A stretch of 64,000 bases of DNA from a virus (taxonomy: Duplodnaviria; Caudoviricetes), in the IMG/VR virus record IMGVR_UViG_3300027986_000008, positions 1 to 64,000 of that record; one strand, written 5' to 3'. The position numbers and the translations under genes are program-made. The notes below the pieces were generated by a model, which searched no databases, was not told where the DNA came from, and saw nothing but the letters and a program-made list of their open reading frames with translations. How positions within the stretch are numbered: position 1 is the stretch's first letter; each line of letters begins with the position of its first letter. Below, piece after piece: positions 11,951-18,580 of the stretch.

Positions 11951-12868
11951 TCATCGGATGAGCCTCTTGTAGGTGAGCCGCTTTCCGGCACTGGCCACCA
12001 CGAAGCTGTCCAAGCGCTCCATCGTGTGTCGCGCGACGTTCCCCTCGTTGAGGCGAAACGTAAATTCATCGACGTAGCGGAACAGGTGCTTTTTGCTGGC
12101 GTGATGGTAGACGCCATGCAGCCCGCGTTTCAGGACGGCCCAGACACTCTCGATGGAGTTAGTGGAGACCGGACCACGGGCAAACTCTCCGGCGCTGTGG
12201 TTGACCCGCTCGTGACGATAGAACAGGCCGTCCAGGTCGTTGTACGCGCCGTACTCATCGGTGTAGATCGTAGAGCCAATTTCCACCGCGCCGTGGATCT
12301 CGTTTTGGATAGTGTTGATGCCGGTCGCGTCAACCACCATGGCGACGGTACGGCCTCCGCGTTCCCGCATTCCCAGCACGGCGGTTTTGCCGACCGACCC
12401 ACGGCCCGCGTTCAGCTTTTTGCAGGCGTGCTTGTTGCCTTCTTTTCCGCCGATGAAAGTCTCGTCAATCTCGACAATCCCGCGAAGCGTTTCCAGCTTA
12501 CCTCCGCAAGCTTCGCGGAGACGGCCCAGAACGAACCACGCGGACTTTTGCGTGATGCCGATCTCTTTAGCGAGTTGCATCGAGGAAATCCCCTTCCGCG
12601 CCGTCACGAGCAAGTACATAGAGTACAGCCACTTGTGCAGCGGAACGTGGGATCGCTCGAAGATGGTGTTCGTGCGGACGGTGAATATTTCGTTGCACGG
12701 GTTGCACCGGTAGTAGCCTCCGGCGCGGGCGGGAACGCAATCGCCAGCCGCGCAGAAGGGACACTTGACACCAGTCGGCCAGAGCCGCGCTTCGAGGTAA
12801 AGTCTCGCGGATTCGGCATCTGGGAACAACTCGAACAGTTGGAACGTGCTGATGGTGGAGCGAGACAT
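11951..12868 (-). CDS. tnp: IS1595-family DDE transposase
   Basis: Zn ribbon CPFC/CNPC, VEIDETFIGG, IYTDE, TNSIESVW, YVDEFTFR motifs. Confidence 0.95.
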   Translation of the reverse strand: MSRSTISTFQLFELFPDAESARLYLEARLWPTGVKCPFCAAGDCVPARAGGYYRCNPCNEIFTVRTNTIFERSHVPLHKWLYSMYLLVTARKGISSMQLAKEIGITQKSAWFVLGRLREACGGKLETLRGIVEIDETFIGGKEGNKHACKKLNAGRGSVGKTAVLGMRERGGRTVAMVVDATGINTIQNEIHGAVEIGSTIYTDEYGAYNDLDGLFYRHERVNHSAGEFARGPVSTNSIESVWAVLKRGLHGVYHHASKKHLFRYVDEFTFRLNEGNVARHTMERLDSFVVASAGKRLTYKRLIR

Positions 12869-14179: not shown

Positions 14180-15205
14180 ATGAGTCGATCCACTATCAGC
14201 ACCTTCGAGCTTTTCGACCTCTTCCCCGACGAAGAATCCGCCCGCGTCTATCTCGAAGGGCGACTCTGGCCGAATGGCACGGTCTGCCCGACGTGCCAAG
14301 CGCAGGATCGCATCACTCCCCGCGCCAAGGGGTACTATCGCTGCAACGCCTGCCAGCTTGATTTCACCGTCCGCACTGGGACGATTTTCGAGCGTTCGCA
14401 TGTCCCGCTGCACAAGTGGGTCTATGCCATGTATTTGCTCGTCACGGCCCGCAAAGGCATCTCCAGTTTGCAACTGGCAAAAGAGATCGGGGTCACTCAG
14501 AAAACCGCGTGGTTCGTCCTGGGACGCTTGCGCGAGGCATGTGGTGGCGAGATCGAGAAGTTGCAGGGCACAATCGAAATCGACGAAACCTTCGTCGGCG
14601 GCAAAGAGCGGAACAAGCACGAATCGAAAAAGCTCAAGGCTGGACGAGGGTCTGTCGGTAAGACCGCAGTCTTGGGTATGCGAGAGCGTGGGGGACGGAC
14701 CATAGCCATGGTCGTACCGTCCACGGACCTGGGCACCGTCCAGAACGAAATCCATGGTGCAGTCGAAGTCGGTAGCCAACTCTACACCGATGAGTTCGGA
14801 GCGTACACCGACCTCGATGGATTGTTCTTTCGTCACGAGACGGTCAACCACAGCGCCAAAGAGTTTGTCCGAGGCGCGGCTCATACGAACGGTATTGAGA
14901 GCGTCTGGGCCGTCCTGAAGCGCGGGCTGCATGGCGTCTACCATCACGCCAGCCCGAAGCACCTGCACCGTTACGTCGATGAATTCACCTGGAGGCTGAA
15001 TGACGGGAATGTGAAGCGTCACAGCCTGCGAAGGCTGGATAGCTTCGTGGACGCGACGAAAGGCAAGCATCTCACATACAAGACGGCTCTGCCGATGAAA
15101 CCCGTTCCACCGATCCTCGATAAGATGGCCGATTTGGTGCTGAATTATCGACCAAAAGACAAAGCCAAAACGCCGCGAAAGCGGAAGAAGGCGAAGCGCT
15201 CGTAA
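14180..15205 (+). CDS. tnp: IS1595-family DDE transposase with basic C-terminal extension
   Basis: Same motifs as 11951-12868. Confidence 0.95.
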   Translation: MSRSTISTFELFDLFPDEESARVYLEGRLWPNGTVCPTCQAQDRITPRAKGYYRCNACQLDFTVRTGTIFERSHVPLHKWVYAMYLLVTARKGISSLQLAKEIGVTQKTAWFVLGRLREACGGEIEKLQGTIEIDETFVGGKERNKHESKKLKAGRGSVGKTAVLGMRERGGRTIAMVVPSTDLGTVQNEIHGAVEVGSQLYTDEFGAYTDLDGLFFRHETVNHSAKEFVRGAAHTNGIESVWAVLKRGLHGVYHHASPKHLHRYVDEFTWRLNDGNVKRHSLRRLDSFVDATKGKHLTYKTALPMKPVPPILDKMADLVLNYRPKDKAKTPRKRKKAKRS

Positions 15206-16486: not shown

Positions 16487-16831
16487 GTGGCTCGACACGG
16501 CAGAGCCGTCGTTCCGTTCGGAAAGAAGTACAAGGGAGTTCAGGTCCGCTTCCTTCCGGATCATTACCTGACGTGGCTCGCCGGTTGGCTGGCTGAGGAG
16601 CCGGAGAAGGCGAAAAGGTTTGATTTCCTCCTCGAGTCGATCCAGAGTGAGCTGCGGCATCGAGGCTTAATGGAAGTAGAAGTCGAAGTGAAGCAGGAGC
16701 CGTTCGTCTGCGAGTGCATCTACTGCGACCTGGAGGCCGGAGAGTGCCCCTGCTCGTGCCACGCAGATAAGGAGAAGCGACAGGTTCGAAGCCGAGCGAT
16801 CGACCTCGAAGAGCTTGGGGGAGAATTATGA
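16487..16831 (+). CDS. DUF3820/ExoX C-terminal-like protein
   Basis: PFGKKYKG....LPDHYLTWL. Confidence 0.6.
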   Translation: MARHGRAVVPFGKKYKGVQVRFLPDHYLTWLAGWLAEEPEKAKRFDFLLESIQSELRHRGLMEVEVEVKQEPFVCECIYCDLEAGECPCSCHADKEKRQVRSRAIDLEELGGEL

Positions 16832-16841
16832 CGGCATACGA

Positions 16842-17555
16842 ATGGGTGGTTCCTCGTTGGACGAAATTCCGGCAGGAAGGGCCGAGAAGAAGGAACGAAA
16901 GTACGAGAACGGCTTCGAGAGAGCCTACCGTATGGCTGTTCAGTCACAAGATTTCGAATTAGCCTTGGGAATGCGAAAGAAACTCAACGGAAAGAAAATC
17001 GTGTATGCAAGCTCTAGAAGAAAAGGAATAGTGATGGATCACTCCGACGTCTTCCTGGTTCTCTCTGAGATGATTCGGAAGTCCGCCGAGGTAGAGTATC
17101 CGTCCGTTCCGACGTTAAAGCTCCGTTGCTTGATCGTATCGTTCGCTCTCTTCGATTGCTCTCGAAAGCTCGGAATAACCGGAGCAAAGCTCATCGGAGG
17201 ATGGTATCGCTTTGAGCCTCCACCGACCGGCAGGCCGGTTTTCGGGGACCAATCCTGGATTCAAGTTGCGAAGATGTATCGAGATGAAAAGGACCGTCAC
17301 GCCTGGGTTGAGTACGACGAAAAGATTTGGGATTTAACGAGAACCCAGTACGGAAACTTTCCCGATGTCTCTATCGCGACGGTCCCGAACCCTCACTATA
17401 TCGCAGATTGCATATCGATGGACGGAGAACTCGTTCGTCATCTTCTTCAGTCATGCGGAAACGACGGTCCCGGAGAAGCCTTCCGAATATCCAGCCGAGT
17501 TATAGCTGAATTTGGTGCGCTAGGCGGGATTCGAACCCGCAACCAAGGAGCTTAG
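16842..17555 (+). CDS. Hypothetical protein with transglutaminase/papain-like motif; start uncertain (alternative 17034)
   Basis: C..VS.AL...HAWVEYDEKIWDLT; 3' end overlaps the antisense tRNA. Confidence 0.5.
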   Translation: MGGSSLDEIPAGRAEKKERKYENGFERAYRMAVQSQDFELALGMRKKLNGKKIVYASSRRKGIVMDHSDVFLVLSEMIRKSAEVEYPSVPTLKLRCLIVSFALFDCSRKLGITGAKLIGGWYRFEPPPTGRPVFGDQSWIQVAKMYRDEKDRHAWVEYDEKIWDLTRTQYGNFPDVSIATVPNPHYIADCISMDGELVRHLLQSCGNDGPGEAFRISSRVIAEFGALGGIRTRNQGA

Positions 17556-17590
17556 ATTTCCCTGCTCTGACCAGTTCGAGCTACTAGCGC
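17513..17590 (-). tRNA. tRNA with CUA anticodon (amber-reading)
   Basis: GCGCTAG/CTAGCGC-A-CCA acceptor; GCTC/GAGC D arm; anticodon loop ATCTAAG; GCGGG-TTCGAAT-CCCGC T arm. Confidence 0.9.
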
Positions 17591-18089
17591 TAATCACGAT
17601 AGAAATTGGTTCCGCGGGAAGGGTTCGAACCTCCGACCTCTCCGAGGCTTTAAGGGCTTCGGATCGCTCTGCCGACTGAGCTACCGCGGATCGATTGAAC
17701 TCGACCGGCCTCCAGAGCCGGTAATTCTTCAGCGCCTGCTTCCTCTCTCGATCGAGAGGCTCCGTGATCAATGACGTGAAGCCGAGACCTCCGTCCGGCT
17801 CGATCCACGCGAAGTACTCGATACCGGCATCGACGAGCTTCTGCTTCGCCTTCGAGAGAGACCGCTCGTCCGGAACTCCGACCACGACGAGGTTCGGAAC
17901 TCCGTCGATCTCGCTCCAGGAAGCGAGCGTGAGAGATGCATGGTTGGATTGAACGATCTGATTCGCCAGAGTCATGTCCTGACGCACGAAGAGGAAAACG
18001 TAACGGTCGGATGGATTATCGTGGAGGTCTTGATCGATCTATCCAGAGAGACCGACCCGCTGAACTTCTTCCGTAGCTAAAATTGCCAA
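17520..18089 (-). CDS. Pth2-like peptidyl-tRNA hydrolase with in-frame TAG at codon 17 (18039-18041); frame continues through both tRNAs
   Basis: YVFLFVRQDM...QIVQSNHA, LVVVGVPDE..L, WIEPD, TSL..EP match the Pth2/PTRHD1 pattern. The only upstream start-type codons (TTG 18089, ATT) precede the TAG. Confidence 0.75.
17607..17690 (-). tRNA. Atypical tRNA with extended anticodon arm and UUA at the loop centre (ochre-reading)
   Basis: TCCGCGG/CCGCGGA-A-CCA acceptor; normal D and T arms; arm TCCGA-A-GC-[CCTTAAA]-GC-C-TCGGA. Confidence 0.8.
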
Positions 18090-18211
18090 TTTAGAATTAC
18101 TATTGTCTTAGGTCGTACCGTCGAGACCTGTCTCACTTTACCAACCGACGGGCTGGCGCGGAGCCTCTCGGCTCCTCCGCAGCTTCCCGGAACTCAGGAA
18201 GATCACCAAAC

Positions 18212-18580
18212 GTGTCTCTCATATCGATAGAACTCGCCATACGCCTCTTCTCCCTCACAGATCCGTCCGCCAAGATCAAGGTGATAGACGAATCCGGCAA
18301 GTACCAGGGAGAAACGACGGCCACCGTCGCCTTCGCTCTCGTCCAGGGAGGAGGGGTGCTCGTGGGAGGAACGAAGTATAAGGTAAAGTACGTTCGCTAC
18401 GCGGTCGCTCACAGCTATCCGTCGCGAGCTGAGCCGGTCTGCCCGATCAAGTCTCCGCGCCAGATCTGGGACGAGACGATGGAGAGCTGGCACCAGAAGA
18501 GGGGCATACTCTCTCCTTCACCGTCCTGGCTGGGAAGCATGGGATACGAATTGAAATTCGGCATGGGCGAGAGGTCATGA
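18212..18580 (+). CDS. Hypothetical protein
   Basis: AGGA SD, GTG start. Confidence 0.55.
   Translation: MSLISIELAIRLFSLTDPSAKIKVIDESGKYQGETTATVAFALVQGGGVLVGGTKYKVKYVRYAVAHSYPSRAEPVCPIKSPRQIWDETMESWHQKRGILSPSPSWLGSMGYELKFGMGERS

What the first reader, a model, noticed from the sequence alone, without database searches (positions are those of the whole stretch)
17985..18089. Pth2 gene is gated by an in-frame amber codon that its own tRNA could read
Seen: TTG GCA ATT...TCT GGA TAG ATC GAT...TAC GTT TTC CTC TTC GTG CGT CAG GAC, translating MAILATEEVQRVGLSG*IDQDLHDNPSDRYVFLFVRQD. The first hydrophobic strand of the Pth2 pattern (YVFLFV) lies upstream of the first GTG/ATG after the TAG. A complete domain therefore needs readthrough of TAG 18039-18041. 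Known: prfB senses release-factor level through an internal stop. Inference: Pth2 is made only when UAG termination is weak or the CUA tRNA is active, forming a feedback sensor. Caveat: there is no clear SD before the TTG.
Basis: partly seen in the sequence, partly recalled or inferred. Interest (0 to 1): 0.85.

Follow-up and report, generated by a model that had tools for sequence, protein, structure and literature searches.

The report
Amber-gated phage Pth2-like gene
A soil phage that uses the normal genetic code keeps a UAG stop codon at the front of a small tRNA-hydrolase-like gene. The gene sits directly in front of the phage's own UAG-reading tRNA, and more than 80 distant phage loci (several cultured phages among them) share the layout, so the enzyme is probably made only while that tRNA overrides the stop.

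Summary
On the minus strand, TAG 18041-18039 lies in frame 12 codons before the first beta-strand of a Pth2-fold domain (18038-17706). The first canonical start after it (GTG 17987) falls inside that strand. An independent assembly (L002) is identical across the region.

The TAG is conserved across the family:
- In 87 distinct homologous loci, the first in-frame stop upstream of the domain is TAG in 84.
- It is usually codon 3 (ATG-NNN-TAG), behind either a Shine-Dalgarno site or a leaderless-type promoter.
- The next codon is usually not a start codon.
- A CUA tRNA lies within 2 kb in at least 43 of 84 loci, and further away in several others.
- The cultured phages ME3, CBB, RsoM2USA, Arash and XacN1 show the same signature. 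RaK2, which lacks the TAG, has no CUA tRNA.

This phage otherwise uses TAG as an ordinary stop (24 of about 142 genes).

A second conserved oddity is that the ORF has no stop before the tRNAs and stays open through them.

Best reading: suppressor-tRNA-dependent (amber-gated) synthesis. The feedback idea is untested. In this window the start codon is unresolved, because there is no ATG-NNN.

I found no published description. This scan has already noted the same cassette on other DNA many times.

The parts
18042..18089 (-). Leader: 16 in-frame codons upstream of the amber codon. TTG 18089-18087 is the only canonical in-frame start and has no SD. This differs from the family norm, ATG-NNN-TAG.
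   Evidence: No sigma-70-type promoter was found. The region has no nucleotide homology to the upstream regions of relatives.
18039..18041 (-). In-frame amber codon (TAG) followed by A (UAG-A context). It is codon 17 counted from the TTG.
   Evidence: TAG sits at the equivalent place in 84 of 87 loci. The base after it is A in 46, G in 35, C in 3 and T in 0.
17706..18038 (-). Pth2-fold domain, 111 codons. Beta-1 is at 18002-17982. Family-invariant residues are R19, D21, H33, P81, D82 and G86.
   Evidence: AF2 pLDDT 93.4. Foldseek top hits are all Pth2 or Bit1 structures with TM about 0.7. PHROG 34073 and 1866 match. Pfam PTH2 scores only 14.7 bits, below the 23-bit cutoff. There are 796 relatives at E<=1e-3.
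17985..17987 (-). First canonical start codon (GTG) after the TAG. It lies inside beta-1, so starting here would truncate the fold.
17691..17705 (-). Junction of five sense codons with no stop codon between the end of the domain and the first tRNA.
17607..17690 (-). 84-nt tRNA-like gene with encoded CCA, an extended anticodon stem of about 9 bp and loop CCUUAAA. ARAGORN calls the anticodon UUA. Position 33 is C, so its decoding role is uncertain.
   Evidence: Relatives with covarying long stems occur in L001, L022 and L031.
17513..17590 (-). tRNA with anticodon CUA (amber suppressor type). It has a canonical cloverleaf, U33, discriminator A73 and encoded CCA.
   Evidence: ARAGORN. Rfam tRNA 52.3 bits.
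17520..17522 (-). First in-frame stop of the ORF. It is again a TAG and lies inside the 3' acceptor strand of the CUA tRNA. The first non-amber stop is TGA 17453-17451.

Best explanation
The unit is a phage operon on the minus strand: leader, UAG, Pth2-fold gene, an odd tRNA, then tRNA(CUA).

**How it most likely works**
1. Ribosomes start upstream of the UAG. In most relatives this is at an ATG two codons before it. In this window the start is at an unresolved site, with TTG 18089 the only canonical candidate.
2. If RF1 wins at the UAG, only a tiny peptide is made.
3. If the phage's CUA tRNA decodes the UAG, translation continues into the Pth2-fold domain.

The enzyme is therefore produced in proportion to suppressor-tRNA activity. 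In short, it is amber-gated.

**Shown here**
- The anatomy.
- Family-wide conservation of the TAG and of its coding context.
- Co-occurrence with CUA tRNAs.
- The Pth2 fold.
- Normal use of TAG as a stop elsewhere in this phage.

**Inferred**
- Expression and charging of the tRNA.
- The residue inserted at the UAG.
- The enzyme's substrate (peptidyl-, N-acyl- or aminoacyl-tRNA).
- Any feedback role.
For: **The TAG is conserved and translated**
- TAG is the first in-frame stop before beta-1 in 84 of 87 distinct loci, and in 41 of 44 clusters at 70% identity. It is never TGA.
- TAG is codon 3 (ATG-NNN-TAG, N variable) in 60 of 84 loci.
- 30 loci have an SD before that ATG. 24 have TTGACA-type -35 and -10 boxes that place the transcript start at the ATG.
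- The codon after the TAG is mostly GTT, ATT, ATC or GTC, and also GGG, GAA, AAG, ACC or CTG. These are not start codons. 75 of 84 loci have no canonical start before beta-1.
- The stretch between the TAG and beta-1 varies mainly at third codon positions.
- The base after the TAG is A or G in 81 of 84 loci and never T. From my own knowledge of E. coli context effects, this is the context reported to favour suppression.

**Link to CUA tRNAs**
- A CUA tRNA lies in the flanks of 43 of 84 loci and is the first downstream gene in 22.
- I tested six contigs with no CUA tRNA in the fetched flanks. L010, L020 and L021 carry one elsewhere. L005 has one that ARAGORN missed.
- Cultured phages ME3, CBB, RsoM2USA and Arash have the gated gene plus a CUA tRNA. 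XacN1 ORF364 is preceded in frame by ATG AAG TAG.
- Ungated RaK2 has no CUA tRNA.

**This phage is not recoded**
- Its stop usage is TGA 70, TAA 48 and TAG 24.
- No other gene is interrupted by a TAG.

**Fold**
- The domain has the Pth2 fold.
Against: - Nothing here is experimental.
- In this window the family's ATG-NNN is missing, and neither an SD nor a promoter was found. Initiation upstream of the TAG is therefore assumed, not shown.
- Two contigs (L009, L013) showed no CUA tRNA among the tRNAs I could fetch.
- Six of 84 loci, and XacN1, have an ATG just after the TAG that could bypass the gate.
- A strong suppressor should be costly, because 24 of this phage's own genes end in TAG.
- The Pth2 catalytic-lysine loop is absent, so the activity may not be classical Pth.
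Confidence: 0.68

Rival explanations
1. The UAG ends a mini-ORF or leader (a lambda bar-like minigene in relatives), and the Pth2-like protein is made by re-initiation at the next codon or at a near-cognate start just after the stop. No suppressor tRNA would be needed.
For: - The codon after the TAG is ATG or GTG in 7 of 84 loci and ATT, ATC or ATA in 37 of 84. These are weak near-cognate starts.
- In the window it is ATC.
- AUG, one sense codon and a stop is the layout of the lambda bar minigenes, which are linked to Pth (PMC8012679).
Against: - 40 of 84 loci have GTT, GTC, GTA, GGG, GAA, GAT, AAG, ACC or CTG after the TAG. These are not plausible starts.
- The SD or the transcript start is positioned for the upstream ATG, not for the codon after the TAG.
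- This reading does not explain why the stop is always TAG, or why CUA tRNAs co-occur.
Confidence: 0.1
2. The TAG is an attenuator that does not depend on the phage tRNA. Rare near-cognate read-through by host tRNAs yields trace amounts of a possibly toxic enzyme, and the neighbouring CUA tRNA serves other targets.
For: An early stop would give very low expression. Some contigs showed no CUA tRNA (L009, L013).
Against: - The stop is exclusively TAG rather than any stop (84 TAG, 0 TGA).
- There is tight physical linkage to CUA tRNAs, which are otherwise rare.
- The ungated RaK2 and L159 lack CUA tRNAs.
Confidence: 0.1
3. In this particular phage the gene is a decaying remnant. It has lost the family's ATG-NNN start and its promoter, so it is no longer translated whatever the tRNA does.
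For: The window has TCT GGA where relatives have ATG ACN, has no SD and no promoter match, and its upstream region has no homology to relatives.
Against: - The 111-codon domain is intact and keeps all family-invariant residues.
- The frame stays open for 22 codons upstream of the TAG.
- About a fifth of relatives also use longer leaders, with the TAG at codons 4-16.
- An identical copy persists in a second sample.
Confidence: 0.1
4. The TAG is a sequencing or assembly error or a private nonsense mutation, or it is a sense codon because the phage is globally TAG-recoded (code 15) or uses pyrrolysine.
For: ARAGORN labels the CUA tRNA 'Pyl'. Recoded phages with suppressor tRNAs are known (10.1101/2021.08.26.457843).
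Against: - A second assembly is identical, and the TAG is conserved across 84 loci.
- 24 of about 142 genes end in TAG, and no other gene is interrupted.
- The tRNA has a normal D-loop and a 5-nt variable loop, unlike tRNA-Pyl (the comparison rests on my own knowledge).
- The 'Pyl' label only reflects the anticodon.
Confidence: 0.02

Closest known systems
Stop-codon-recoded phages with phage-encoded suppressor tRNAs (TAG read as Gln, code 15; Borges et al., 10.1101/2021.08.26.457843; PMC9523058)
   Same: A phage-encoded CUA tRNA allows translation of phage genes that carry in-frame TAG. Those authors proposed that recoding times gene expression.
   Different: - Here the genome is standard-code and TAG ends 24 genes.
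- Only one gene is gated.
- The TAG sits at one conserved position, usually codon 3.
- The gated gene is physically fused to the tRNA operon, and it encodes a tRNA-end enzyme rather than a structural or lysis protein.
prfB (RF2) autoregulation through an early in-frame UGA
   Same: A conserved early in-frame stop codon makes synthesis of a translation factor depend on how efficiently that stop is read.
   Different: prfB needs a +1 frameshift and senses its own product. Here the downstream frame is the 0 frame, the competitor is a tRNA, and whether the product feeds back on UAG decoding is unknown.
PTH2-type peptidyl-tRNA hydrolases in phage tRNA arrays (jumbo phages, PMC7824862; cluster C mycobacteriophages, PMC5966550)
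   Same: A Pth2-fold gene embedded among phage tRNA genes. Homologues occur in the same jumbo phages.
   Different: - Those papers do not report an in-frame amber codon.
- Database annotations truncate or omit the gene: ME3_195 and CBB_406 are truncated, and it is unannotated in RsoM2USA.
- This family lacks the GKGK lysine loop.
ArfA, made from a non-stop mRNA so that tmRNA controls its level (PMC8012679)
   Same: A translation-rescue-type protein whose ORF lacks a usable stop once the RNA is processed. Here RNase P cleavage at the tRNA 5' end would leave a non-stop message.
   Different: Cleavage and tagging are untested. In addition, the frame is kept open through the whole tRNA, which the ArfA logic does not require.
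Lambda bar minigenes (AUG AUA stop) that provoke peptidyl-tRNA drop-off (PMC8012679)
   Same: In most relatives the 5' end reads AUG, one sense codon, then a stop. Without suppression this is a two-codon minigene placed in front of a Pth-like gene.
   Different: The window itself has a 16-codon leader instead. In relatives the frame continues into a conserved protein.

Membership tests
PTH2 peptidyl-tRNA hydrolase (Pfam PF01981) | Sequence match above the Pfam gathering score | tested here: not met
   The window protein scores 14.7 bits against a 23-bit cutoff. 12 of 38 relatives match at E<=0.01, with a best E of 1e-5. The family profile hits one PDB Pth at E 0.006.
PTH2 peptidyl-tRNA hydrolase (Pfam PF01981) | Pth2 alpha/beta fold | tested here: met
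   AF2 pLDDT 93.4. The Foldseek top 11 hits are Pth2, Bit1 or Pth2-like structures (3erj, 2zv3, 1q7s, 1wn2, 1xty), with TM 0.65-0.75 and probability 1.0.
PTH2 peptidyl-tRNA hydrolase (Pfam PF01981) | Catalytic Lys in the G-K-G-K loop before the Q-x-x-H-A helix (S. solfataricus K18; from my own knowledge) | tested here: not met
   The profile alignment to a solved Pth puts its 'tgKK' against a gap plus variable residues and Gln in this family. The loop is deleted.
PTH2 peptidyl-tRNA hydrolase (Pfam PF01981) | Catalytic Asp in a D-x-G-x-T type motif | tested here: inconclusive
   P81, D82 and G86 are invariant and T88 is conserved among the closer relatives, which resembles the motif. No residue-level structural superposition was available.
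PTH2 peptidyl-tRNA hydrolase (Pfam PF01981) | Hydrolysis of peptidyl-tRNA | not testable with these tools
   This needs an enzyme assay.
Code-15 (TAG-recoded) phage | Many genes with in-frame TAG, and TAG rarely used as a terminator | tested here: not met
   24 of about 142 predicted genes end in TAG, and only this gene is interrupted.
Code-15 (TAG-recoded) phage | Phage-encoded CUA suppressor tRNA | tested here: met
   tRNA 17590-17513.
prfB-like programmed stop | Conserved early in-frame stop | tested here: met
   84 of 87 loci.
prfB-like programmed stop | Downstream ORF in the +1 frame (frameshift) | tested here: not met
   The domain is in the 0 frame.
ArfA-like non-stop regulation | No in-frame stop before an RNA processing site | tested here: met
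   There is no stop between the domain end and the tRNA 5' end in the window, or in any of the 21 loci with an abutting tRNA.
ArfA-like non-stop regulation | Cleavage in vivo and tmRNA tagging of the product | not testable with these tools

The most novel reading that the evidence does not exclude
The cassette may be a self-regulating suppressor-tRNA module with two coupled gates.

1. **Sensor.** The early UAG senses suppressor activity.
2. **Coupling to tRNA maturation.** The ORF has no stop and is kept open through the downstream tRNA(s). TAA or TGA occurs in the ORF frame in 0 of 21 loci, against 11 and 15 of 21 in the other two frames. Ribosomes that pass the UAG would therefore run into the pre-tRNA on the same transcript. 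They either unfold it and hinder its maturation, giving negative feedback on suppressor level, or they reach an RNase-P-made non-stop end. In the second case the enzyme escapes tmRNA tagging only when rescue is saturated, as with ArfA.

This would also name the long-sought target of CUA tRNAs in standard-code jumbo phages. The XacN1 authors reported they could find none (PMC5852040).
Probability: 0.2. Interest if true: 0.9.

Novelty: new variant of a known kind. Interest (0 to 1): 0.8.

Why it matters
- **What standard-code phages do with amber-suppressor tRNAs.** The XacN1 paper states that no target gene could be identified. A conserved TAG-gated gene next to the tRNA supplies a concrete and testable target.
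- **A natural genetic switch.** It would be a tRNA-operated switch outside the recoded gut phages.
- **Annotation.** Gene callers truncate or miss this gene.
- **Tractable systems.** The arrangement occurs in cultured phage-host pairs (Salmonella phage Arash, Pectobacterium CBB, Ralstonia RsoM2USA, Xanthomonas XacN1, Acinetobacter ME3), where it can be tested.
- **The ORF-tRNA fusion.** It hints at translation-coupled control of tRNA maturation, for which I know no precedent.

Tried and rejected
- **First locus search.** A single-protein scan of viral contigs found nothing. The broad alignment A2 was too divergent to seed a scan. The narrower A3 worked.
- **Promoter.** The promoter scan found no sigma-70 site in 17300-18400. 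By eye, the best candidate for a leaderless TTG start is weak: TCGACG, 17 nt, AGTAAT, then 6 nt.
- **Upstream homology.** blastn of the window's upstream 177 nt against all loci found no homology.
- **Pattern search for CUA tRNAs.** An IUPAC pattern search in phage records failed its own positive control and was discarded. I used Rfam tRNA searches plus ARAGORN instead.
- **Readings rejected.**
  - Read error: a second assembly is identical.
  - Global TAG recoding: refuted by stop usage.
  - Pyrrolysine: the label reflects the anticodon only.
  - Frameshift: the domain is in the 0 frame.
  - Start at GTG 17987: it deletes beta-1.
- **Not resolved.** The amino-acid identity of the CUA tRNAs. 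The 53 distinct sequences carry all four discriminator bases.

Full report
**Setting.** The window is the first 64 kb of a 102,276-bp single-contig phage genome. It carries a portal gene and a head protease gene. Coding is dense under the standard code. ARAGORN finds only two tRNA genes in the whole genome, and both lie next to the finding on the minus strand. One has anticodon CUA (17590-17513). The other is an odd 84-nt tRNA that ARAGORN calls UUA (17690-17607). Rfam's tRNA model scores them 52.3 and 46.9 bits.

**The observation.** Reading the minus strand, TTG 18089 is followed by 15 sense codons and then TAG 18041-18039. The frame then continues without a canonical start until GTG 17987.

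The post-TAG protein is only a weak Pfam PTH2 match (14.7 bits, cutoff 23). It belongs to a large family, with 796 representatives at E<=1e-3. Its AlphaFold2 model (pLDDT 93.4) matches solved Pth2 and Bit1 structures and nothing else convincingly (TM about 0.7).

The model puts beta-1 at residues 13-19, and the GTG encodes residue 18. A second assembly from another sample is identical over the region.

**Family-wide conservation.** I collected 19 IMG/VR loci, 80 metagenome loci, 3 MAG loci and one short ENA contig. I analysed 87 distinct gene sequences, counting the window.

- The first in-frame stop upstream of beta-1 is TAG in 84, TAA in 3 and TGA in none.
- At 70% protein identity these form 44 clusters, and 41 of them are all-TAG.
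- TAG is codon 3 (ATG-NNN-TAG) in 60 of 84. The middle codon varies and is mostly a Thr codon ending in any of the four bases.
- Thirty loci have a Shine-Dalgarno motif before that ATG. Twenty-four have a strong promoter, mostly a perfect TTGACA, a 16-18 nt spacer and a TAnnnT box ending 6-9 nt before the ATG. That geometry implies a leaderless mRNA starting at the ATG.
- Nineteen loci, like the window, have longer leaders.
- The codon after the TAG is GTT, ATT, ATC or GTC in 64 loci, and in others GGG, GAA, AAG, ACC or CTG. Only 7 loci have ATG or GTG there.
- 75 of 84 loci have no canonical start between the TAG and beta-1.
- The residues between the TAG and beta-1 vary mainly at third codon positions (entropy 17.6, 11.8 and 23.6), so this stretch is translated in this frame.
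- The base after the TAG is A in 46, G in 35, C in 3 and T in 0.

Together these results mean the UAG has to be decoded to make the protein. They also mean selection keeps it a UAG.

**Link to the CUA tRNA.**
- A CUA tRNA lies within the fetched flanks (at most 2 kb) in 43 of 84 gated loci. It is the very next gene in 22.
- I tested six contigs that lacked one in the flanks. Three carry one elsewhere (L010, L020, L021). One (L005) has a CUA tRNA with a long variable arm that ARAGORN missed. Two (L009, L013) showed none among the tRNAs I could fetch.
- Ungated members exist. L159/L160 have a normal ATG and stop and no tRNA within 2.5 kb. L104 and L162 are also ungated.
- One database protein that appeared to have Gln at the site had in fact been called with TAG=Q.

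**Cultured phages.** tblastn finds the family in 33 GenBank phage records, apparently all jumbo phages.

| Phage | Leader | CUA tRNA | Annotation |
|---|---|---|---|
| Acinetobacter ME3 | ATG ACT TAG | 450 nt upstream | truncated |
| Pectobacterium CBB | SD, ATG GCA CAA TAG | 3.7 kb away | truncated |
| Ralstonia RsoM2USA | SD, ATG TTG TAG | present | gene unannotated |
| Salmonella Arash | SD, ATG CTG TAG | about 1 kb downstream (annotated as tRNA-Phe) | gene split between two annotated CDSs (gp85c, gp84c), neither complete |
| Xanthomonas XacN1 (ORF364, HD-Pth2 fusion) | ATG AAG TAG, in frame | two, per the paper | annotated from a downstream ATG |
| Klebsiella RaK2 | ordinary ATG, no TAG | none among its 8-9 tRNAs | ORF216 |

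The XacN1 paper reports two CUA tRNAs and states that no target genes could be identified (PMC5852040).

**This phage is not recoded.** A rough gene call gives 142 genes with stops TGA 70, TAA 48 and TAG 24. Large structural genes are among those ending in TAG. Scans for coding signal on both sides of a stop, and for long frames opened by a TAG, found no other interrupted gene. The amber gate is therefore specific to this gene.

**A second conserved oddity.** After the conserved C-terminal motif (Y-R-L-W) the window ORF has five more sense codons and then runs straight into the first tRNA. It stays open through both tRNAs and ends at a TAG inside the acceptor stem of the CUA tRNA. The first TAA or TGA is at 17453-17451.

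In all 21 loci where a tRNA starts between -5 and +23 nt from the domain end, there is no stop before the tRNA. In some of them the tRNA's first bases encode the last residues of the domain. Through the tRNA, the ORF frame contains TAA or TGA in 0 of 21 loci (and TAG in 1). The other two frames contain them in 11 and 15 of 21. That asymmetry suggests ribosomes do traverse the tRNA sequence.

Two readings are possible, and both are inferred:
- An ArfA-like non-stop message created by RNase P (ArfA logic: PMC8012679).
- Ribosome invasion of the pre-tRNA, acting as feedback on tRNA maturation.

**What is specific to this window.** Relatives have ATG ACN before the TAG, and the window has TCT GGA. 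The only canonical in-frame start upstream is TTG 18089, which has no SD. No promoter was predicted and the upstream region has no homologue. The domain is nevertheless intact and keeps all invariant residues. I therefore read the gene as functional with an unresolved start, and I give about 10% to local decay.

**Function of the protein.** The Pth2 assignment is at fold level. The R-x-D and Q-x-x-H-A motifs and a P-D...G-x-T motif are conserved. The lysine-bearing G-K-G-K loop of canonical Pth2 is missing. PTH2 genes in phage tRNA arrays have been described (PMC7824862, PMC5966550), but without mention of an amber codon.

**Literature and earlier notes.** Searches on suppressor tRNA, Pth, phage and in-frame amber codons found no description of this arrangement. 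This scan's own notes already record the same cassette on many other genomes, and other first-reader notes cover the same unit in this window. I reached the pattern independently before reading them. They agree with my results but are not independent evidence.

**Verdict.** The feedback and mechanistic details remain open. I class it as a new variant of suppressor-tRNA-dependent phage gene expression, of high interest.

Noticed in passing
window 17607-17690 (-); L001:582-664; also L022 and L031: tRNA-like genes of 83-86 nt sit directly after the Pth2-like ORF in the closest relatives. They have an 8-10 bp anticodon stem that covaries between loci and 7-nt loops (CCUUAAA, CCAUAAA, CCUGAAA, CUUAUCC), mostly with C at position 33. 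Their anticodon and role are unclear, so the 'UUA ochre suppressor' call is uncertain.
   Followed up: partly
window 17451-17705 (-) and 21 related loci: The ORF has no stop before the tRNA(s) and its frame is free of TAA/TGA through the whole tRNA in 21 of 21 loci. The other two frames carry stops in 11 and 15 of 21. In some loci the tRNA 5' end encodes the last residues of the domain.
   Followed up: yes
window 16815-17555 (+): A 246-aa ORF of unknown function on the opposite strand overlaps the CUA tRNA gene by about 43 nt. Its TAG stop (17553-17555) is the complement of the CUA anticodon.
   Followed up: no
L097 and L101 (metagenome contigs): Two low-GC relatives have TAA instead of TAG at the equivalent site (an ATG, four sense codons, TAA, then ATT). 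No tRNA was seen in the flanks. They may be ochre-gated variants.
   Followed up: no
L005:2858-2966: A CUA tRNA with an insertion of about 35 nt in the variable region. ARAGORN missed it and Rfam found it, so counts of CUA tRNAs near the gene are underestimates.
   Followed up: partly
Many loci (e.g. L037, L041, L043, L044, L047, L057, L072, L158): Two different CUA tRNA genes occur per locus. The 53 distinct CUA tRNAs carry all four discriminator bases, which suggests more than one amino-acid identity.
   Followed up: partly
L040, L043, L049, L055, L083, just 3' of the CUA tRNA: A GC-rich hairpin-like stretch ending in a shared GCTTGA(G/A)TG motif follows the tRNA, and the ORF's in-frame TGA falls within it.
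   Followed up: no
window 11951-12868 (-) and 14180-15205 (+): Two IS1595-family transposase genes (Zn-ribbon plus DDE_Tnp_IS1595) lie inside the phage genome, as seen in the gene table of the identical contig L002.
   Followed up: no
GenBank OQ632216 (Salmonella phage Arash), locus L210:2810-2884: A tRNA annotated as tRNA-Phe has the anticodon loop CUCUAAA, so it is a CUA tRNA. The Pth2-like gene beside it is split between two annotated CDSs (gp85c and gp84c), neither of which covers the whole gene.
   Followed up: partly
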